From assembly GCA_041659945.1 (NCBI GenBank), contig JBAZXH010000001.1, positions 693,364 to 757,363 of the forward strand: DNA of 64,000 bases, given 5' to 3'. The position numbers and the translations under genes were made by a program. Below, piece after piece: positions 2,882 to 48,428 of the stretch (position 1 is the first letter of the stretch; every line of letters starts with the position of its first letter). Under the pieces are notes generated by a model, which saw only the letters and a list, made by a program, of their open reading frames with translations, was not told where the DNA came from and ran no database searches. Origin of the DNA: Candidatus Pacearchaeota archaeon (lineage in GTDB: Archaea; Nanobdellota; Nanobdellia; Pacearchaeales; GW2011-AR1).

Positions 2882-3046
2882 CTTTCTAATGTCTAATTCT
2901 AGTTCTTAAACTTTTGCATTTAGAAATGCGAATAGAAATATATTATGGTTTCGAGGGTACTCAAGAATTGAGAATTCTTGGTAGTTTTAATTCTCTTTTA
3001 TTGATGAATTGAAACGAGTTCAAACCAAGGTTCGAATCCTTAAGAA

Positions 3047-3121
3047 TGGCTTCGAGGGGATTCGAACCCCCGACACCTGGCTTAAAAGGCCAGTGCTCTA
3101 ACCAGGCTGAGCTACGAAGCC
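3047..3121 (-). tRNA. tRNA-Lys (anticodon UUU)
   Basis: Hand-folded cloverleaf. Acceptor GGCUUCG/CGAAGCC, D-arm GCUC..GAGC, anticodon stem CUGGC/GCCAG with loop CUUUUAA, T-arm GGGGG-UUCGAAU-CCCCU. Confidence 0.9.
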
Positions 3122-41199: not shown

Positions 41200-42171
41200 A
41201 TGGCTGAAGTAGAACCAGAACCAGAATTTGTTGTTGATGTTGATAGAATAGACTTGGTAAATACTACTTTGTGTGATGCCTTTAAGCAAGAGAGAGGTCT
41301 TTTTTCTGGAGGGTTTAAACAATTTTTACCTCAATGGAATTTGCCCTCTGAGGTGGAATTTGACCCTCCAGCAATAAAAGTACAAGATCCATTGAGAGCA
41401 TCATTGTACCTTTGGACATGTGCTTTTTTTGAAAGAATGAATCAATCAAGGTATATAATAACAAATGCAGCAAGAGTCTGGAATGATCCTAATAAACGAT
41501 GGTTTTTCCATCCAGTGCAGGTTGCTACGCATTCTTTAGAACAAATTTCAGATATAACTCTAGGAGAATTTCAATTTAATCTTACGGGTCTTAGAGAAGA
41601 ACCTCCTGAAAAAAGATATTTAGATAATGCTCTGCTTTTAGTTAATGAATATCATGGTGATCCACGTAAGCTAATAGAAGAAAGAACAGTTGAAGAGGCT
41701 AGAAAAAATATAATGCAATTTAAAGGAATCGGATCAGGAATAGCTAATTTGTACATATTATACCTTTTAGAAAGAGAAATTACAAGTCCAACTGATCCTG
41801 AGAATGTATTGTTAAAAGTAGATATTCATAAAGCAAGACTACTTTTAAATACTCAAGCAGTAAAAACAAAAAGTCAAAGAGTGAGAAGAGGCATGTTAAC
41901 TCCGGCGTTGGAAAAGGCATATTTAGAATCATCTAGGAGGCAGGGATTAGATCCACGTGATTTAGATGCTGCTTTGTGGATAACTGGTTCTGAAGGTTGT
42001 GCTAGGAGAGATTATAGCTTTTGTTTATATCATTGCGTTTTATGTGACAGTTTATGTACTTCTCTTATTGGCTATGATGAAAACACAAGTGATTTTCTTG
42101 TTTTTGATGATTCTCAAGGAACTAGAAGAGTTGATACAAGAAAAAATGTCGGACAATTAAGTTTATTTTAA
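41200..42171 (+). CDS. HhH-GPD superfamily (endonuclease III-like) DNA glycosylase-like protein with a Cys cluster
   Basis: HhH FKGIGSGIANLYILYL, VDIHKARLL (compare VDTHVxR), C-terminal C-x7-C-x3-C-x2-C-x3-C cluster. Confidence 0.55.
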   Translation: MAEVEPEPEFVVDVDRIDLVNTTLCDAFKQERGLFSGGFKQFLPQWNLPSEVEFDPPAIKVQDPLRASLYLWTCAFFERMNQSRYIITNAARVWNDPNKRWFFHPVQVATHSLEQISDITLGEFQFNLTGLREEPPEKRYLDNALLLVNEYHGDPRKLIEERTVEEARKNIMQFKGIGSGIANLYILYLLEREITSPTDPENVLLKVDIHKARLLLNTQAVKTKSQRVRRGMLTPALEKAYLESSRRQGLDPRDLDAALWITGSEGCARRDYSFCLYHCVLCDSLCTSLIGYDENTSDFLVFDDSQGTRRVDTRKNVGQLSLF

Positions 42172-42185
42172 TTAATTTATTGATG

Positions 42186-43241
42186 TTAAAACAAGGGCTC
42201 TTCTTCAGTTCCATCTTCTTCTGGTGGAGGAATATCAAATGGAACTTCTACTATACCTTTCATTTGTTCTTCTGTGGGTAAAAATAATTGTTTCTCACCA
42301 AAAACTGCATCTTCTGAATGAAATCTGGGAAGAGAATCTTCGTAAACTCGTTCTCTAGAGAATTCTCTTAATTGTTCTCTTGAAGTTTCGAGCCACTCTT
42401 TTCCTTCATCTTTGAAATCTATTGAAATAAACGGAAATTGGTGAACCTGTTTTCTATTTATTCTTAAACCTTTAACTTTTGATCTTGAAAAGGAAAATTT
42501 TCTAGATTTAAAACCAATTAATTCAAGAGTCTCTTCTGGATTAGATACTAGCATATTTAAAAATCTTGTTGAAACGCTCATAATGTGTTTTTCAGCATAA
42601 CCTCTGTATACTGGATCATATTGTCTACAGTAACAGTATATTCTTGTGGGAAAGCCATGGGGTTTTTCCATTGGTTGAGGTATGAAAAATGAAAGAGGTA
42701 TAGCTAGCGGAACTTTAATTCCATATAAAATTCCTCCTTTAACGAGTTCTTCAAGGTATGCGCTTCTTGTTAATCCTCTGTTTTCAGCGTGTTTTATATT
42801 ATGTCGAAAGAAAACATAGTGACATTTTGGAGGATTTTCTGGATTATCACTTTCAGGATCACTGTAAAGAACCCAATTGCAGTGTGTTTGAAGCTGTTCT
42901 TGAATAAGTTTTGTATCTGTTCCCCAAACACAAGCTTTTACTTCAGTGTAAATTCTATTTTTATGATCTGCAACATCTGGCTGATAACCTATTTCTTGTT
43001 TTCCATTGTGAAAGTGAGTGACACATCCGTGATGATGATATCCTCCTAGCATAGCTCCTGCAATTCTTTCAAAACAATATGCTCCAAATATTCCTAATTG
43101 TCTATATGGAACTTGTTCTCCCCATAGATCTGTTTGTTCATGATCTCCGGGCAAATAAATATTTCTTTGAGCTAGATCAAATGGTCTTTTGAAATCTTTT
43201 AGTTCACCTAGTAATCTCACCTGTTTTTTTGACCTCTCCAT
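42186..43241 (-). CDS. PD-(D/E)xK nuclease-fold protein
   Basis: Core motif QPDVADHKNRIYTEVKA (D ... E-x-K) in a 351-aa protein, convergent with the glycosylase-like gene (14-nt gap). Confidence 0.45.
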   Translation of the reverse strand: MERSKKQVRLLGELKDFKRPFDLAQRNIYLPGDHEQTDLWGEQVPYRQLGIFGAYCFERIAGAMLGGYHHHGCVTHFHNGKQEIGYQPDVADHKNRIYTEVKACVWGTDTKLIQEQLQTHCNWVLYSDPESDNPENPPKCHYVFFRHNIKHAENRGLTRSAYLEELVKGGILYGIKVPLAIPLSFFIPQPMEKPHGFPTRIYCYCRQYDPVYRGYAEKHIMSVSTRFLNMLVSNPEETLELIGFKSRKFSFSRSKVKGLRINRKQVHQFPFISIDFKDEGKEWLETSREQLREFSRERVYEDSLPRFHSEDAVFGEKQLFLPTEEQMKGIVEVPFDIPPPEEDGTEEEPLF

Positions 43242-43333
43242 TTGAGCTTAGAGTTTTTTTATTTTATAAAGATTAGACTATTATAACATATACTTTTAGA
43301 AGCATTTAAAAAAGAACGAAGATTCTAAGGTTT

Positions 43334-43409
43334 AGCGGAGTGGAGCAGCCTGGAGTGCTCGCGAGGCCCATAACCTCGAGGTCGCGTGGTTCAAATCCCG
43401 CCTCCGCTA
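43334..43409 (+). tRNA. tRNA-Met (anticodon CAU), initiator-like A1:U72
   Basis: Hand fold: acceptor AGCGGAG/CUCCGCU, D-arm GAGC/GCUC, anticodon stem CGAGG/CCUCG with loop CCCAUAA, T-loop UUCAAAU. The T-stem needs one bulged U. Confidence 0.75.
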
Positions 43410-43512
43410 TTCTGCGGGATTTGGTTCAAATACTTACATTTGTGAGAATGAAAGTTGCCAAAATTTAGAAGGAATTTTTAGCACCCACCTATGCTACTCT
43501 TGGGATTTGAAA

Positions 43513-44091
43513 TTAATTGGATAATCTTGCTTCTCCTCTCATTGATTTTAGTACTAATACTGCTAGATCATTTATTTGTCCCGGAGTAATTCTTTCCTTT
43601 TTTTCTCTTACATTTCTTCTTATCTCTTCTTCTATTATCCTTATTAAATACTCATTCATAAATCCCTGGCTTCTGGTGGAAAGCGCTATATTTCTAGGGT
43701 TTAACCATAAACCATCTCCAACTTTAAACCTTACGATAGTTAATCCACTTAGCTCCATAAGCCTTTGTGATTGAGATAATTCTATTTCTGGCCTTTCAAA
43801 TTCTACATAACCTAACTCTTGGCAGTCTACTTTTCTTCTTGAATAAAATGGACTCGAAGCAAGTTCAAATCCTTCTTCATCTGGGTAGTAAACTCTCCAA
43901 GCATCTTCTCTTGTATCATACCCAACCCTAAGAAGATCAAGATCTCTTGTTGCAACTCTTAATTTTGATCCTTTCTGATCTTCCCTTACTTCCCTTGGTG
44001 ATGCCTCAAAAAGATATCGTGGAAGATTTTGACCATTATGTTTAAATGGAATTTCTGCAGGTATGCATTTTAATCTATCTTTTTTACCCAT
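43513..44091 (-). CDS. hypothetical protein (192 aa) between two tRNA genes
   Basis: ORF only. Confidence 0.45.
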   Translation of the reverse strand: MGKKDRLKCIPAEIPFKHNGQNLPRYLFEASPREVREDQKGSKLRVATRDLDLLRVGYDTREDAWRVYYPDEEGFELASSPFYSRRKVDCQELGYVEFERPEIELSQSQRLMELSGLTIVRFKVGDGLWLNPRNIALSTRSQGFMNEYLIRIIEEEIRRNVREKKERITPGQINDLAVLVLKSMRGEARLSN

Positions 44092-44207
44092 AATTTTCTA
44101 GAGAATGTCTTATATAAAAAGAATTAGGTGATTTAGAATAACTCTTTATTTAGATTAAAAACTGGAAAACAATAACTTTAAATCCCTTAATTTTATTCTA
44201 TAACTGT

Positions 44208-44290
44208 GCCCAGTTCGCATAGCGGTATTGCACGGGGTTGCTAACCCCGACCGGGTAACCGGTGGGCAGGTTCGACTCCTGCACTGGGCG
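44208..44290 (+). tRNA. tRNA-Ser (anticodon GCU)
   Basis: Hand fold: acceptor GCCCAGU/ACUGGGC, anticodon stem CGGGG/CCCCG with loop UUGCUAA, long variable arm ACCGGGUAACCGGUGG, T-arm GCAGG-UUCGACU-CCUGC. Confidence 0.9.
44276..44290 (+). repeat. attL-like direct repeat (tRNA-Ser 3' end)
   Basis: ctcctgcactgggcg. Confidence 0.6.
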
Positions 44291-44349
44291 GATGGGAAAA
44301 GTCCGACACTCTTACTGTGGTTTAATAGCCACAACAAAAGTAAGAGAAT

Positions 44350-44706
44350 ATGGATATACATAATTACAAGAGAAGATTTGATAGAACAGTTGAAAGAATA
44401 AAAGAATCAATTGATATTTCTAAGGATAATAAGGAAATTGCCCTGAAATTTAAGGATTATTGCATTAGTGATGGTATTGGGGTGGCTAAAATTGAAAGAT
44501 ATTTAGGTGATATAATGAAATACTCTAAAATGCTTGGAAAGTCCTTTTCTAAAGCTTCTAAAGATGATCTTAGAAGGGTTGTAGCAGAACTTGAACAAAC
44601 TGAGCTTTCTCCTGAGACTAAGAAGTGTTTTAAGATTATGTTAAGAAAATTGTATAGATTTATTGAAGCTTTTTCAGATAATCGGATAATTCAAAAAAAT
44701 AGTTAG
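44350..44706 (+). pseudogene. tyrosine recombinase/integrase, N-terminal SAM-like core-binding domain only (truncated)
   Basis: 118 aa resembling archaeal integrase N-termini (KFKDYCISDGIGVAKIERYLGDIMKY...SKDDLRRVV...LSPETKKCFKIMLRKLYRFI). No catalytic R..HxxR..Y domain follows. Confidence 0.55.
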
Positions 44707-44809
44707 AACTGCTAACTTTAAACCTTCGCTACCTTCCACAAAGCCTCTAACTGCTGCGATTTTGACTACAATAATTCTTAAATATCAACAATTCACCTAA
44801 ATTACTAAT

Positions 44810-46045
44810 ATGCCAAAGTTAAAAAAAGTTGATTTTGATAAACAATTTAGATTCAGAGAAGCAAGAGAAAATGATTCTCGAAGAGGATTAGTTAATCGAG
44901 TTAATTGTACTAATTGTGTTCATACAGCTTGTGAACCAAGACCAGATAAAGGAAAAATCGGTGAACATAATGAAAAAGATAATTTTTGTGATCATCCTGA
45001 AAGATTAAGAAGAATAAAAATAGCAGAATATTGGGATAGTGGTGGCATGGGTAGAAGCTATAGCCATAGTCATAATCTTGCTGATGTTCGTGTTTGTGAT
45101 GCCTATAAATCCCAACCTTTACCAGCAGGAGTTACTGTACCAGAGATCCCTAAAGGCCAGGCAGTTCTATTAAGTTCTCAAAATGCGGATCCCTATCATG
45201 CTGACCCTAATTGCCCTTACGTCATAGAAGAGGCAAGAATGTTAGCAGACGGTACAAATCATAACGCTTTATTTAGGAGACCAGAAATTCGTGTTGTAGA
45301 CATCTCTGATATGGTTCCTGGAGAAACAATAAGAGATATTTGTGAAATGTCTTGTTGCGAATCTAAACTTCCCTTTCAACTCATAGGTAATCCAAATGGT
45401 TATAGGAGCAGAGCTGGAATAAAACCAGACGGATCTGAGCCAATAGTCTGGGTAAGAATAGTTAAAGATCATAAAAGAAAGATTTCAATGACTATTGAAG
45501 AAGCAGAGGCTGCTCTTGATCTAACAAGATTTACTGGTCCTGAATTTAAGACTATACATGATGAAATTATTGCAGCGAGTGATCATCTACATAATACTTG
45601 TAATTATCTTGGTTCAAAACCTTTGTCTGAAGCTGCTAATCCTGTTGTGGTTCATCCCCACGATTTTCACCTTTTAGAACCGCTCGCATCAGATCCATTT
45701 AAACCAGAATTTTGGTTATATGACAAACGATTGTTTGATCCTAAAAGAAAGGATGAATTTAAAGGTAAACCAATTAGAGAATTAGAAGAAATACCTGAAG
45801 GATTTATTTTATGTCTTGATAGGGAAAGAGTCCTTAGATTTGCAAGAACCGGAGAAAGAAGTGATGGCCCTCCATATGGACACTTAATGTATGGCATTGT
45901 AAACCCTTTAATCGATGAATCTTTAATTAATCGAGGAGTAACTCACTGCATTGATATTCGTGCTGTAAATTATAATGGTTTCAATCATTGGTGGGGAGTT
46001 TTTGGAAAAGGATTTTCTAAAATAGCAAGCTTTGACGAAGACTAA
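44810..46045 (+). CDS. hypothetical Cys/His-rich protein (411 aa), cargo of the tRNA-Ser element
   Basis: Long ORF with N-terminal CTNCVHTAC...FCDHPE Cys/His clusters. No family recognised. Confidence 0.5.
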   Translation: MPKLKKVDFDKQFRFREARENDSRRGLVNRVNCTNCVHTACEPRPDKGKIGEHNEKDNFCDHPERLRRIKIAEYWDSGGMGRSYSHSHNLADVRVCDAYKSQPLPAGVTVPEIPKGQAVLLSSQNADPYHADPNCPYVIEEARMLADGTNHNALFRRPEIRVVDISDMVPGETIRDICEMSCCESKLPFQLIGNPNGYRSRAGIKPDGSEPIVWVRIVKDHKRKISMTIEEAEAALDLTRFTGPEFKTIHDEIIAASDHLHNTCNYLGSKPLSEAANPVVVHPHDFHLLEPLASDPFKPEFWLYDKRLFDPKRKDEFKGKPIRELEEIPEGFILCLDRERVLRFARTGERSDGPPYGHLMYGIVNPLIDESLINRGVTHCIDIRAVNYNGFNHWWGVFGKGFSKIASFDED

Positions 46046-46127
46046 ATATAGAAAATTATAAATAGAAGCCATGACTTTGTTAGTTAGATACTAAATAGAT
46101 AAGTAAGGGTGTTTGATTAATTCTAAT

Positions 46128-46142
46128 CTTCTGCACTGGGCG
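46128..46142 (+). repeat. attR-like direct repeat
   Basis: cttctgcactgggcg. The 12 terminal nt are identical to the tRNA-Ser 3' end, a GC-rich string in AT-rich intergenic DNA. Confidence 0.6.
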
Positions 46143-46184
46143 TGTGAAAGACAGATTTATAAAGTTTTGATTTTTAGCTTATAT

Positions 46185-46367
46185 ATGAAAAATAAGAAAA
46201 GAGGATTTTTTACGAGAAGATTAGGAATTATTTTGATGATAATTGGAGTGGCTTTTCAATTCTTGAATATTTTGACCTATGGACTTTGGGAAATAGATAT
46301 TGATATATTGGGAGCACTTATTTTTATTATTGGATTAGTAATCATGATTGTTCGGTGGAAGAAATAA
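46185..46367 (+). CDS. small membrane protein (60 aa)
   Basis: ATG 25 nt downstream of an agatttataaag box, with two hydrophobic helices. The longer TTG-start track ORF would run through the att-like repeat. Confidence 0.45.
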   Translation: MKNKKRGFFTRRLGIILMIIGVAFQFLNILTYGLWEIDIDILGALIFIIGLVIMIVRWKK

Positions 46368-46378
46368 AAAAGTGTTTC

Positions 46379-46660
46379 TTATTTTATACTCCAGAATTTC
46401 CATTTGTGAGGTATGTCAACACTCCAAAATCTTTTGTTTAAAAAATCATTTAGGTCACTGATGAAAAGACCGATTCCAAAGAATATTAGAAATATTCCGA
46501 AAATATCTTTTATGTAAAAAATTCCAATTATAACTAAAACTATTCCAAATATCCAGTGATGTGGACCGTTTAGATGGCCTCCGTATTTGTCGCCTATTCT
46601 ACCAAGACTAAATCCTGCAAATAAACTTACAATTCCGGATATTATTGCGAGTATGTTCAT
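46379..46660 (-). CDS. small integral membrane protein (93 aa)
   Basis: Three hydrophobic helices. Confidence 0.5.
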   Translation of the reverse strand: MNILAIISGIVSLFAGFSLGRIGDKYGGHLNGPHHWIFGIVLVIIGIFYIKDIFGIFLIFFGIGLFISDLNDFLNKRFWSVDIPHKWKFWSIK

Positions 46661-46718
46661 TAAAATTAAATGAGAGTAAAGTTTAAAAAAATAGTGGAAG
46701 TTGAGGTCTTAGGAAGAT

Positions 46719-47108
46719 GTGGACAAAATGCCCTGTTTTAAAAGTCTTGTTTATTGTTGTAATTTTGCAGAACCATGTTCTGGAAGAGATAGAGAATTAG
46801 AAAGAAGAGGGTTGACTCGAGAGGGTTATGAATCTTTAAAGAGATTTTTTGATTTGGAGTTAGCTAGACTTCTTAGAAGAAAAAAAGGAAGAAGTGCTCC
46901 AGTTATTTGTGGCATCAACAGGGAACAAGGATATACATTTAGATGTCGTCAAAGTAAAGGGAGTCTTGCCTATTGCTGTCCTATTCAGGGTCCAGATGGA
47001 CATGCTTATAAGGACTGCTCATTAAGAGATAGAGAATTAGAAAGATTGGGTTTGACTCTTGAAGAGTACGTAAGCTTAAAGAGGCAGTTTGCTGAGATTT
47101 TTCCGTAA
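46719..47108 (+). CDS. hypothetical protein with a tandem internal Cys-containing repeat
   Basis: Two copies of YCC..x..C-S-x-RDRELER-x-GLT-x-E-x-Y-x-SLKR-x-F, visible in the DNA too (agagatagagaattagaaaga twice). ATG at 46728 is an alternative start. Confidence 0.45.
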   Translation: MDKMPCFKSLVYCCNFAEPCSGRDRELERRGLTREGYESLKRFFDLELARLLRRKKGRSAPVICGINREQGYTFRCRQSKGSLAYCCPIQGPDGHAYKDCSLRDRELERLGLTLEEYVSLKRQFAEIFP

Positions 47109-47149
47109 TCTATATAAATATTTAAAAAGGAATGATTTTTTGAGTATTC

Positions 47150-47512
47150 ATGGCACCTTTTGATAGTGATGGTATTTGGCGTGATGGTTCTAGCTCTTTT
47201 AGATCTAGTACTCGTTTTTCAACATCTTCTTATATGTCTGAACCTGAAGAAGGATTTGGATGGAGAAATATTAGTGCAGAGGATCTTTCGAGGAAAAGAC
47301 CTGAAAATTTAGTCTTTGAAGTTAAGATTGGTAAAACTTCATATAGGATTCTTTGGGCAAAAAAAGGTAACTTAACTGAAGTTTTAGGACATCATGATGT
47401 TTGGGATTATGTTGCACATCGTGATAGAAACAAGTCTGCAATTGTATCTGCTTATCATGGTGGAAGAGACGTTACAGATAAGTTAACCGAAGCATTTGGT
47501 TCAGTTAATTAA
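47150..47512 (+). CDS. hypothetical protein (120 aa)
   Basis: ORF only. Confidence 0.4.
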   Translation: MAPFDSDGIWRDGSSSFRSSTRFSTSSYMSEPEEGFGWRNISAEDLSRKRPENLVFEVKIGKTSYRILWAKKGNLTEVLGHHDVWDYVAHRDRNKSAIVSAYHGGRDVTDKLTEAFGSVN

Positions 47513-47561
47513 TTCTTATTAGAATAGCAAAAATTATATACTTCCTATACCTTAATATTTA

Positions 47562-47735
47562 ATGAGGGTAATCTGGCCAACTATCAAACTGGTCTTGTTT
47601 TATCTTGTTTTAATACTTGTAGTTATCTATGTTGGGTTAAAAACAACATCATATATTTATTTTATTTGTGCTTTAGCAGTTGGTTTAATTGGGTTTTATT
47701 GGAGTGTCAGGAACCCGCTAACTAAAGGGGTTTAA
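47562..47735 (+). CDS. small membrane protein (57 aa)
   Basis: Hand-translated MRVIWPTIKLVLFYLVLILVVIYVGL... with two hydrophobic helices. Confidence 0.35.
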   Translation: MRVIWPTIKLVLFYLVLILVVIYVGLKTTSYIYFICALAVGLIGFYWSVRNPLTKGV

Positions 47736-47789
47736 GCAGTTCTTGAGTACTATAACAATTCTTAAAAGCTTAAGATTTATTTCTTTTTT

Positions 47790-48296
47790 ATGAGAAGATC
47801 TCCAAGAGGGCCTCGAAGAATTGAGAGAATTATTGCATTTATGCTTAGTCGCGATAGGTCTTTGAAAAAATTAGAAAAAGATATTACTGATGTTCGTGGA
47901 AATACTTATTTAATTGAAACTCCAGTTTATGACCGAGGAGTTGTAAGAATTATTGGACCAAATGATATTGATTTGTATAGCGGCCCGTGTTTAGATGTTC
48001 CGGATGTTGAAACTCCTAAAGCTCAGCTTATGTTTGGAGCAAAAGCTGGAAATCCTCATGCAACTGTTTATGGTGTATATTTTCATGTTGGTTGTCTTAA
48101 GGGTGATGGACTTAGCCTGTGGGATTCTTTTTGGTTTGATGAGCTAAGTAGTGCAGGTCTTTACCAGGCTTTTGTTTCTAGTAAAGGAAAGTTACCTTGG
48201 GATGATCTTCTTAGATTTAATCCGCAATATGGATCAGATATGCCTCTTTTTGATTTATCTGTTAGAGAAGTTCAAAAAACACTTAAAAAATCCTGA
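47790..48296 (+). CDS. hypothetical protein (168 aa)
   Basis: ORF with a TATA-like box upstream. No motif recognised. Confidence 0.45.
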   Translation: MRRSPRGPRRIERIIAFMLSRDRSLKKLEKDITDVRGNTYLIETPVYDRGVVRIIGPNDIDLYSGPCLDVPDVETPKAQLMFGAKAGNPHATVYGVYFHVGCLKGDGLSLWDSFWFDELSSAGLYQAFVSSKGKLPWDDLLRFNPQYGSDMPLFDLSVREVQKTLKKS

Positions 48297-48428
48297 AACC
48301 CCAAATAAGAAGGTTTTTAAACACAGTAAATATCCATTTACATCATTAGAAATATACAGTTAACATAAAACCGTTATACACTATTTCTTAGTGATAGACT
48401 AAACATAAATTAATAACTAGGAGGAAAA

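What the first reader, a model, noticed from the sequence alone, without database searches (positions are those of the whole stretch)
44208..46185. tRNA-Ser-anchored 1.85-kb integrated element remnant with att-like direct repeats, a truncated integrase and a single large Cys/His-rich ORFan
The last 15 nt of tRNA-Ser(GCU), ctcctgcactgggcg (44276-44290), recur as cttctgcactgggcg at 46128-46142, with 14 of 15 identical and 12 contiguous. A GC-rich 12-mer recurring by chance in 64 kb of AT-rich DNA is unlikely (expected well below 0.01 for random sequence), and here one copy is exactly a tRNA 3' end.

Between the repeats lie two genes:
- A 118-aa ORF that looks like only the N-terminal SAM-like core-binding domain of a tyrosine recombinase. 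It starts 59 nt after the tRNA and is followed by ~100 nt of non-coding, relatively GC-rich sequence that may be decayed int.
- A 411-aa ORF with N-terminal Cys/His clusters and no recognisable family.

The right repeat sits just upstream of the promoter box of the next gene. This is a minimal captured element whose only intact cargo is of unknown function, so it could be a replication, defence or host-interaction gene.
Basis: partly seen in the sequence, partly recalled or inferred. Interest (0 to 1): 0.7.

Follow-up and report, generated by a model that had tools for sequence, protein, structure and literature searches.

The report
Dead integrated element at tRNA-Ser
A small mobile element once inserted into the end of a serine tRNA gene of a tiny (DPANN) archaeon, then lost most of its integrase and became stuck, leaving one intact gene for a cysteine-rich protein of unknown function; this is an ordinary kind of event, in a little-studied lineage.

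Summary
tRNA-Ser(GCU) is at 44208-44290. Its last 12 nt recur exactly at 46131-46142 (14 of 15 over 46128-46142), against 0.01 matches expected by chance.

The 118-aa ORF is the first ~110 residues of a ~330-aa tyrosine recombinase. It is 67% identical to full-length relatives, and the catalytic domain is deleted rather than decayed.

Relatives of this integrase in other DPANN contigs lie 27-64 nt downstream of a tRNA gene. In the two loci with enough downstream sequence, a 13-14-nt copy of the tRNA 3' end recurs 3.6-5 kb on. They share a conserved att-int junction and left arm. Joining the window's two ends rebuilds an attP with an inverted repeat at the family's positions. So this is a lambda-type ("type II") integrative element immobilised by loss of its integrase.

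The 411-aa gene is not an ORFan. It belongs to a small DPANN-only family with two invariant Cys clusters and no match in any profile or structure library searched. The family lies downstream of tRNA-Ser(GCU) in at least four independent lineages, and only the window has an integrase remnant.

Verdict: a new member of a known kind, of modest interest.

The parts
44208..44290 (+). tRNA-Ser(GCU), intact. Its 3' end is the attachment site (attB/attL).
   Evidence: Rfam tRNA model, 53.6 bits, E 7.8e-10. ARAGORN gives anticodon gct.
44279..44290 (+). attL identity core CTGCACTGGGCG, the last 12 nt of the tRNA (extended repeat 44276-44290).
   Evidence: Exact 12-mer present twice in 64 kb against 0.01 expected. 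Sequence read.
44291..44349 (+). Element right arm (P') with the int promoter region. It contains inverted-repeat half ACACTCTTACT (44306-44316) and the palindrome GTGGTTTAATAGCCAC around a TATA-like box (44317-44332).
   Evidence: The junction is homologous to the tRNA-int junctions of L048, L051 and L054 (alignment A3). Inverted repeat shown.
44350..44706 (+). Truncated tyrosine-recombinase gene. It keeps only the N-terminal SAM-like core-binding domain. Similarity to full-length relatives ends at about codon 107-110 (about 44668-44680).
   Evidence: PF02899 at 23.0 bits against a cut-off of 22.3. 67% identity to residues 1-110 of the 343-aa P0051. Alignments A2 and A5. No catalytic-domain remnant anywhere in the window.
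44707..44809 (+). Non-coding spacer and likely promoter of the 411-aa gene (TTAAATAT about 30 nt before the ATG). It lies just after the deletion that removed the int catalytic domain.
   Evidence: 33% GC and no similarity to integrases or to any fetched locus. The TATA-like box is read.
44810..46045 (+). Intact 411-aa cargo gene, a member of an uncharacterised DPANN-only family. Invariant residues are C33, C36, C60, C96, H130, C135, C178, C182 and C183.
   Evidence: 38 homologues. Alignment A1. 56 hits among 1.84 billion representatives. AF2 mean pLDDT 77.5, confident for residues ~105-411. No match in profile or structure libraries.
46102..46127 (+). Element left arm (P). It contains inverted-repeat half AGTAAGGGTGT (46102-46112) and the TTCTAAT motif (46121-46127).
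   Evidence: Ungapped hand count on the and 66 sequences: 16 of 23 identical to the L051 left arm, with the same motif in L054 (alignment A4). The 10-of-11 inverted repeat with 44306-44316 sits at the same offsets as GGGCAT/ATGCCC in L051 and L054. Chance is 3-5% at any position.
46128..46142 (+). attR, cttCTGCACTGGGCG: a 12-nt identity core plus 3 nt derived from the P arm, with one mismatch to the tRNA.
   Evidence: The same C-to-T difference next to the core is seen in the L039 and L044 attR copies (17 of 18 identical).
46156..46188 (+). Chromosomal flank: the TATA-like box TTTATAAAG and the ATG (46186) of the next gene, a small membrane protein. This lies outside the element.
   Evidence: Repeat families D3 and D4 show this box upstream of three genes. 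Sequence.

Best explanation
A small integrative element used a lambda-type (archaeal "type II", pNOB8-like) tyrosine recombinase to recombine its attP with the last ~12 nt of the chromosomal tRNA-Ser(GCU) gene.

This rebuilt an intact tRNA at attL and left a 15-nt partial copy at attR, 1.85 kb downstream. The integrase gene sits directly after the tRNA and reads away from it.

A later internal deletion removed integrase codons ~110-330, which hold the whole catalytic domain, and possibly other genes. The element can no longer excise and is fixed in the chromosome ("gene capture").

The one intact gene encodes a 411-aa protein with two invariant Cys clusters. My best guess is a metal-binding protein that acts on nucleic acid, serving element maintenance or a host-parasite conflict role. 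That functional assignment is inference only.

Shown: the att repeats, the integrase identity and truncation, and the family-wide element architecture. Inferred: the order of events, that the 411-aa gene arrived with this element, and its function.
For: **In the window**
- The repeat is non-random and coincides exactly with the tRNA 3' end.
- The 118-aa ORF is the N-terminus of a ~330-aa recombinase family. Full-length members of that family have a complete PF00589 domain and the R...HxxR...Y motifs.

**In relatives of the integrase**
- Every relative for which DNA was fetched, bar two, lies 27-64 nt downstream of a tRNA gene on the same strand: tRNA-Glu in L048, tRNA-Ser(UGA) in L050, and tRNA-Thr in L051-53.
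- The two exceptions: L054 has only a tRNA-end core, and L055 has none.
- The tRNA's last 13-14 nt recur downstream in L048 (3.6 kb) and in L051/L052 (5 kb).
- L054 carries a full-length int preceded only by a 13-nt core resembling a tRNA 3' end, with the same flanks.

**att architecture**
- The att-int junction and the left arm are conserved between these elements and the window (A3 and A4).
- Joining the window's attR-left and attL-right flanks rebuilds an attP with a 10-of-11 inverted repeat at -29/+16. This is where relatives have GGGCAT/ATGCCC.

**The 411-aa gene looks horizontally acquired and functional**
- The window's host genes are much closer to L030 than to L015: SMC 63% vs 48%, and RNase HII 69% vs 42%.
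- The 411-aa protein shows the opposite pattern, 43.5% vs 50.7%.
- The family sits at different places relative to conserved genes in different genomes.
- It is under purifying selection where that can be measured: dN/dS 0.29 between L030 and L039.
Against: - No empty-site allele and no circular form were found.
- No other locus of the 411-aa family holds a remnant of this integrase family. The int + 411 gene combination is therefore seen only here.
- In L039, L044 and L035/37 the partial tRNA-Ser copies lie between the tRNA and the 411-family gene, not after it. No attR was found after the gene in any other locus.
- The gene's GC and GC3 are typical of the host.
- Neither the integrase nor the 411-aa family was found in IMG/VR. 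The 411-aa family was also absent from the plasmid and phage collections.
- The inverted repeat alone has a 3-5% chance expectation.
Confidence: 0.78

Rival explanations
1. The 411-aa gene is a resident chromosomal gene that has long been the downstream neighbour of tRNA-Ser(GCU) in this group of archaea. The int fragment would then be the remnant of an element that inserted between the tRNA and the gene. The downstream 15-mer would be a leftover of a different, older event, or chance.
For: - The family lies downstream of tRNA-Ser(GCU), on the same strand and within 3 kb, in several independent lineages: window, L035/37, L030/L039/L044 and L003.
- In L039, L044 and L035 the partial tRNA copies lie upstream of the gene.
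- No int remnant accompanies the gene elsewhere.
- Its composition is host-like.
- It is absent from virus and plasmid collections.
Against: - The 12-mer has an expectation of 0.01 per 64 kb.
- Its left flank resembles the left arm of related elements and pairs as an inverted repeat with the flank next to int.
- The family is rare: 56 hits among 1.84 billion representatives and 6 of 185,579 species genomes.
- Its similarities run against those of the host genes.
- It sits next to SMC, rpoB, the primase-like Toprim gene or Spt5/L11 in other genomes.
- An older event that enclosed the gene would still make it captured cargo.
Confidence: 0.14
2. An SSV-type ("suicidal", type I) integrase whose gene was split by integration into int(N) and int(C) halves at the two ends of the element. 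On this reading the 118-aa ORF is a normal int(N), not a deletion product.
For: The int is short, lies at one end of the element and is next to a tRNA. Split integrases are common in archaea (review PMC8371274).
Against: - The att core lies 59 nt outside the ORF, not inside it.
- Full-length relatives are contiguous genes with the att core upstream of their start codon.
- No int(C) is present near attR or anywhere else in the window.
- The domain make-up (SAM-like N domain plus PF00589) is that of the XerA/XerC/pNOB8 group.
Confidence: 0.02
3. The 411-aa protein is itself the mobility or replication protein of a minimal element that targets tRNA-Ser, a new enzyme type. The tyrosine integrase would belong to an unrelated passenger event.
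For: - The gene recurs next to tRNA-Ser without any recognisable integrase.
- It has many invariant Cys, His and acidic residues.
- N-half relatives carry weak zinc-ribbon hits.
- There are weak OB-fold-like structural matches.
Against: - No terminal repeats flank the gene in other loci.
- There is no second copy in the window.
- No nuclease, transposase, Rep or primase fold or profile was detected.
- Distances to the tRNA vary from 0.3 to 2.9 kb, with unrelated genes in between.
Confidence: 0.05

Closest known systems
Archaeal type II (pNOB8-like, phage-lambda paradigm) tyrosine integrases and their integrated elements (She et al. 2002, 2004; reviewed in PMC8371274)
   Same: - The int gene is not split by integration and sits next to the att site.
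- The target is a tRNA gene, which is rebuilt intact.
- The domain make-up is a SAM-like N domain plus a PF00589 catalytic domain.
   Different: - The host is a DPANN archaeon, a group the review does not mention (0 occurrences).
- The identity core is very short (12-14 nt) and sits at the extreme 3' end of the tRNA.
- The window copy lacks the catalytic domain.
- Sequence membership in the pNOB8 family proper was not tested.
"Gene capture" in archaeal chromosomes (She et al. 2001, cited in PMC8371274)
   Same: An integrated element is trapped in the chromosome after its integrase is inactivated, and its cargo genes become resident.
   Different: The classic cases involve SSV-type integrases, whose genes are split by the integration itself. 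Here the inactivation is an internal deletion of a lambda-type int.
tRNA-linked genomic islands built by repeated integration (Williams 2002 for bacteria; Krupovic et al. 2019 for integrated elements of Thaumarchaeota, both as cited in PMC8371274)
   Same: - There is a variable island downstream of one tRNA gene, with nested partial tRNA copies.
- It holds toxin-antitoxin, Fic and IS genes: tRNA-Ser - Fic - attR - variable DNA - 411-family gene in L039/L030/L044.
   Different: In the window only one att-bounded unit of 1.85 kb can be delimited. Older units further downstream are not demonstrable.
Chromosomal XerA/XerC/XerD dimer-resolution recombinases
   Same: The N-terminal domain gives weak XerD-type hits (TIGR02225, E 3.7e-4). 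Relatives are annotated XerC/XerD by their sources.
   Different: - The scores are far below the equivalog cut-off (19.9 vs 329.6 bits).
- The gene is tRNA-adjacent and flanked by att repeats.
- It is truncated at different points in different genomes, which a housekeeping resolvase would not tolerate.

Membership tests
Tyrosine recombinase (integrase) superfamily | N-terminal SAM-like core-binding domain | tested here: met
   PF02899 at 23.0 bits against a cut-off of 22.3, residues 48-105. 67% identity to residues 1-110 of full-length members.
Tyrosine recombinase (integrase) superfamily | C-terminal catalytic domain (PF00589) with R...HxxR...Y residues | tested here: not met
   Absent from the window copy. 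The ORF stops at 118 aa, and tblastn with 65 family proteins finds nothing beyond 44703. It is present in the relatives P0055, P0059 and P0079. The window gene is therefore a pseudogene fragment of a family member, not a working recombinase.
Type II (lambda/pNOB8-paradigm) archaeal integrative element | Direct att repeats, one inside the target tRNA gene, which stays intact | tested here: met
   The same layout is seen in L048 and L051/L052.
Type II (lambda/pNOB8-paradigm) archaeal integrative element | The int gene is contiguous and lies outside the att core (not partitioned by integration) | tested here: met
   The core ends 59 nt before the int ATG. In L054 the full-length int lies downstream of the core.
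Type II (lambda/pNOB8-paradigm) archaeal integrative element | Occupied and empty sites, or a free circular form, exist in populations | tested here: inconclusive
   Only one context was found for the identical neighbouring protein, on 5 contigs. Reads were not available.
Type II (lambda/pNOB8-paradigm) archaeal integrative element | The recombinase catalyses attP x attB recombination at the tRNA 3'-end core | not testable with these tools
   This needs biochemistry or genetics with a full-length relative such as P0055.
SSV-type (type I, suicidal) integrase element | attP lies inside the int ORF, so int(N) and int(C) halves flank the integrated element | tested here: not met
   The att core is outside the ORF. 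There is no int(C) in the window.
Provirus or plasmid | Hallmark genes (capsid, packaging, Rep, helicase or primase), or presence in virus or plasmid collections | tested here: not met
   - No PHROGs hit for the 411-aa protein.
- Neither family was found in IMG/VR.
- The 411-aa protein was absent from PLSDB and INPHARED.
- Absence may reflect poor sampling of DPANN mobile elements.
Any described protein family, for the 411-aa protein | A significant profile or structural match | tested here: not met
   - Pfam: none, including all 36 members at E<=1.
- PHROGs, PADLOC and NCBIfam: none.
- PDB sequence profile: best E 0.39.
- Foldseek: best E 0.17 against PDB and 0.15 against BFVD.

The most novel reading that the evidence does not exclude
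The 411-aa Cys-rich family would be a new, DPANN-specific functional module tied to the tRNA-Ser(GCU) integration hot-spot. It could be a previously unknown maintenance, replication or defence protein of DPANN mobile elements, or even a mobility determinant in its own right. Its fold has no neighbour among solved or viral structures. This would account for three things: why it keeps turning up downstream of this one tRNA, why no recognisable integrase accompanies it, and why it is kept under purifying selection.
Probability: 0.12. Interest if true: 0.6.

Novelty: new member of a known kind. Interest (0 to 1): 0.36.

Why it matters
Mobile elements of DPANN archaea are barely described, and the standard review of archaeal tyrosine recombinases does not mention the group.

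This locus and its relatives define a family of tRNA-targeting integrases in these organisms with three features:
- a 12-14-nt core at the tRNA 3' end;
- a conserved att-int junction;
- an inverted repeat that spans the core.

Close relatives (at least ~50% identical) on contigs longer than 10 kb are all truncated. That suggests frequent capture of foreign genes in genomes of only ~0.8 Mb.

The work also flags a small, conserved, Cys-rich protein family with a confidently predicted structure but no known relative. It is a candidate for experimental study.

None of this overturns current understanding.

Tried and rejected
1. **Decayed int in the spacer 44707-44809.** Rejected. tblastn with 65 integrase-family proteins finds nothing there, and the spacer is far too short for the missing ~220 codons.
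2. **SSV-type split integrase.** Rejected (see rivals).
3. **Compositional evidence of foreign origin.** None. The gene's GC z-score is +1.0 and its GC3 z-score is -0.7.
4. **Empty-site allele.** Looked up through the exact 192-aa upstream neighbour. Only the occupied context was found.
5. **Viral or plasmid origin.** No relatives of either protein in IMG/VR. No relatives of the 411-aa protein in PLSDB or INPHARED.
6. **The idea that ~2.7-2.9-kb contigs with full-length int are whole circular elements carrying int plus a 411-family gene.** Rejected. L054 and L055 have no terminal overlap and no 411 homologue.
7. **GAF-like C-terminal domain.** This was suggested by weak repeated hits to two multi-GAF histidine kinases. 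It is not supported by Foldseek or the PDB profile search and is treated as spurious.
8. **OB-fold or SSB-like C-terminal domain.** Only E ~0.15-0.2 and probability ~0.5. This is a hint, not a finding.
9. **attR-like sequences downstream of 411-family genes in the other loci.** None found.
10. **Homology between the small ORFs that flank the gene in different genomes.** None.
11. **A decayed tRNA half in the spacer.** Not detected by Rfam at E<=1.
Full report
**What is in the sequence**

ARAGORN and the Rfam tRNA model place an intact tRNA-Ser(GCU) at 44208-44290.

Its last 12 nt, CTGCACTGGGCG, recur exactly at 46131-46142 and nowhere else in the window. The chance expectation is 0.01, and none of 100 shuffles gave two matches. 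With the three preceding bases the repeat is 14 of 15 identical. A 17-mer search allowing three mismatches returns only these two sites.

Three things lie between the copies:
- a 118-aa ORF (44350-44706) that starts 59 nt after the tRNA;
- a 103-nt spacer;
- a 411-aa ORF (44810-46045).

A TTTATAAAG box lies right of the second copy and precedes the next start codon (46186). The same box precedes two other genes nearby.

**The integrase fragment**

- The 118-aa ORF passes the Pfam cut-off for the SAM-like N-terminal domain of phage integrases, narrowly (23.0 vs 22.3 bits).
- Much stronger evidence: it is 67% identical over residues 1-110 to the N-terminus of a 343-aa protein (E 2e-49).
- Relatives of 313-331 aa carry a complete PF00589 catalytic domain and the R...HxxR...Y residues.
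- Similarity stops at about codon 107-110.
- tblastn with 65 members of the family finds nothing else in the window.
- About 220 codons are missing and only 103 nt follow the ORF. The catalytic domain was therefore deleted, not eroded in place. That spacer is 33% GC, the genome average.

**It belongs to a family of elements with the same architecture**

- Every relative of the fragment for which DNA was fetched, bar two, lies 27-64 nt downstream of a tRNA gene on the same strand: tRNA-Glu (L048), tRNA-Ser(UGA) (L050) and tRNA-Thr (L051-53).
- The two exceptions: L054 has only a tRNA-end core, and L055 has none.
- Where enough sequence is available, the last 13-14 nt of that tRNA recur downstream, 3.6 kb away in L048 and 5 kb away in L051/L052.
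- In L054 a full-length int is preceded only by a 13-nt core resembling a tRNA 3' end. This is what an attP, or an inner junction of a tandem array, would look like.
- The stretch between core and int start is conserved across these elements and the window. It includes a GTGGTTWATWAGCCAC palindrome around a TATA-like box (alignment A3).
- The DNA left of the downstream copy is also conserved. It reads AAGGGCATT...TTCTAAW in L051 and L054, and AAGGGTGTT...TTCTAAT in the window (alignment A4).
- I joined the window's attR-left flank to its attL-right flank. This rebuilds an attP with a 10-of-11 inverted repeat, AGTAAGGGTGT at -29 and ACACTCTTACT at +16. Those are the offsets where L051 and L054 have GGGCAT and ATGCCC.
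- Taken alone, such a repeat arises in 3-5% of random pairs of segments. The positional agreement with relatives makes it more telling.

Together these results show that 44291-46130 was delivered by a single attP x attB event of a lambda-type integrase. Alternatively, two events by the same sub-lineage would fit.

**The 411-aa gene**

It is not an ORFan.
- 38 full-length or partial homologues at 39-67% identity exist. All come from metagenomes or from MAGs labelled Pacearchaeota or Woesearchaeota.
- A profile search of 1.84 billion representative proteins found only 56 hits, many of them fragments. Some share only the N-terminal half or only the C-terminal half.
- Nine Cys/His positions are invariant: C33, C36, C60, C96, H130, C135, C178, C182 and C183. 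I read these as two metal sites, which is inference.
- AlphaFold2 gives a confident model for residues ~105-411 (mean pLDDT 77.5, pTM 0.70).
- Foldseek finds nothing better than E 0.17 in the PDB and E 0.15 in BFVD. The best matches are weak OB-fold-like ones.
- Pfam, PHROGs, PADLOC, NCBIfam and a PDB sequence profile search are all negative.
- Between two sister genomes the gene has dN/dS 0.29, against 0.07 for RNase HII. It is functional but evolves fast.

**Genomic context elsewhere**

The family lies downstream of tRNA-Ser(GCU), on the same strand and within 3 kb, in the window and in three other lineages. In a 0.8-Mb genome with one such tRNA, the chance expectation is about 0.3% per locus. 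That figure is my estimate.

| Lineage | Layout between the tRNA and the gene |
|---|---|
| Window | 520 nt, holding the int fragment |
| L035/L037 | 564 nt |
| L030/L039/L044 | 1.7-2.5 kb |
| L003 | 2.9 kb, tRNA with an intron |

A fifth lineage (L041/42) has the gene 287 nt after a different tRNA-Ser.

The intervening DNA is typical island material:
- Fic;
- ParE/VapB;
- a nucleotidyltransferase;
- an IS transposase.

In L039 and L044, tRNA-Ser - Fic - attR forms a separate ~1-kb captured unit upstream of the gene. The unit is degraded in L030.

In other genomes the gene sits beside SMC, rpoB, a Toprim gene or Spt5/L11.

The window shares the backbone SMC - RNase HII - 351-aa gene - tRNA-Met - tRNA-Ser with L030. 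Identities there are SMC 63% and RNase HII 69%, against 48% and 42% to L015. Yet its 411-aa protein is closer to L015's (50.7%) than to L030's (43.5%). This pattern indicates horizontal movement, with tRNA-Ser(GCU) as the preferred landing site.

There is a caveat. No other locus combines the gene with this integrase family, and no attR follows the gene elsewhere.

**Most likely mechanism**

1. An element carrying int next to attP, with the 411-aa gene at its far end, integrated into the 3' end of tRNA-Ser(GCU).
2. The crossover fell within the 12-nt core. The tRNA kept its own T-stem base, while attR carries the element's version (cttCTGC...). The same variant is seen in the L039 and L044 attR copies.
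3. A deletion then removed the catalytic domain of int and fixed the element in place.
4. The cargo gene was retained, probably because it is useful or at least harmless.

I put the element model at about 0.78. That the 411-aa gene arrived with it I put at about 0.7. Any specific function for the protein, such as metal-dependent nucleic-acid binding for maintenance or conflict, I put no higher than 0.25.

**Rivals**

- A resident-gene model explains the other loci well. It does not explain the window's attR, its conserved left arm or the inverted repeat (about 0.14).
- An SSV-type split integrase is excluded by the position of the core and the absence of int(C) (about 0.02).
- A self-mobile 411-aa protein lacks any supporting repeat structure or catalytic fold (about 0.05).

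**Comparison with what is known**

The layout matches archaeal type II (pNOB8-like, lambda-paradigm) integrative elements and the "gene capture" concept. Both, along with the preference for tRNA targets, are reviewed in PMC8371274. That review does not mention DPANN archaea.

The finding is a new member of a known kind. It adds a defined att architecture for a DPANN integrase family and one uncharacterised cargo family.

**Leads that went nowhere**

- No empty site.
- No viral or plasmid relatives.
- No compositional anomaly.
- No circular mini-element.
- No support for a GAF-like domain.
- No homology among the flanking small ORFs.

Noticed in passing
table (relatives of the window's int fragment, 44350-44706): Among close relatives of the integrase (at least ~50% identical), every copy on a contig longer than 10 kb is truncated (115-245 aa, cut at different points). 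Full-length copies (289-343 aa) occur only on contigs under 3 kb. This suggests that fixed chromosomal copies are dead and that active elements break assemblies.
   Followed up: partly
L039 5434-6514; L030 6172-7253; L044 446-1613: tRNA-Ser(GCU) - Fic gene - 14-of-15 copy of the tRNA 3' end (TTCTGCTCTGGGCGT). This is a separate ~1-kb captured unit without any integrase. It is intact in L039 and L044, and its attR is degraded in L030.
   Followed up: partly
L035 886-919 and L037 1530-1563: An orphan 34-nt 3' half of a tRNA-Ser lies ~390 nt after the resident tRNA-Ser(GCU) and 143 nt before a 411-family gene. It differs from the resident tRNA at four positions.
   Followed up: partly
L042 7577-7788 (= L041 2120-2331): A tRNA-Ser with the unusual anticodon AGA is flanked by short copies of its own 5' end (57 nt upstream) and its own 3' end (59 nt downstream). 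It lies just before a 411-family gene and after a tRNA-Ser(GGA).
   Followed up: no
L018 9915-9947 (= L031 7915-7947): An orphan sequence resembling a tRNA 3' end (T arm plus acceptor strand) lies ~55 nt upstream of a 411-family gene. Neither ARAGORN nor Rfam recognises it as a tRNA. It is next to an intron-containing tRNA-Val.
   Followed up: partly
window 46719-47108: A 129-aa ORF is built from an internal duplication (60-nt repeat at 46784 and 47024, spacing 240 nt). Each half is Cys-rich and matches the methanogenesis-marker-9 domain (TIGR03277, E 1.5e-16, below the cut-off). This is odd in a DPANN genome.
   Followed up: no
window 43410-44207 vs L001 3553-4195: The slot between tRNA-Met and tRNA-Ser holds a minus-strand ORF in both genomes (192 aa and 179 aa). 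The two proteins show no similarity although the surrounding genes are syntenic, so this is another variable slot next to a tRNA.
   Followed up: partly
window 2946-2957 (minus strand): An 11-of-12 copy of the 3' end of tRNA-Lys (3047-3121, minus strand) lies ~90 nt downstream of that tRNA. It could be a second att remnant or chance, since many 11-mers with one mismatch occur.
   Followed up: no
window 41200-48300: Nearly every ORF in this 7-kb stretch around the two tRNAs lacks any Pfam, PHROGs, PADLOC or NCBIfam match. The region downstream of attR (46143-48300) may hold older, no longer delimitable insertions.
   Followed up: partly
window 43263-43271, 46156-46164, 47120-47128: A recurring TTTATAAAG / TTTAAAAAG box lies 22-31 nt upstream of start codons. 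This is consistent with archaeal TATA promoters and leaderless or short-leader transcripts.
   Followed up: no
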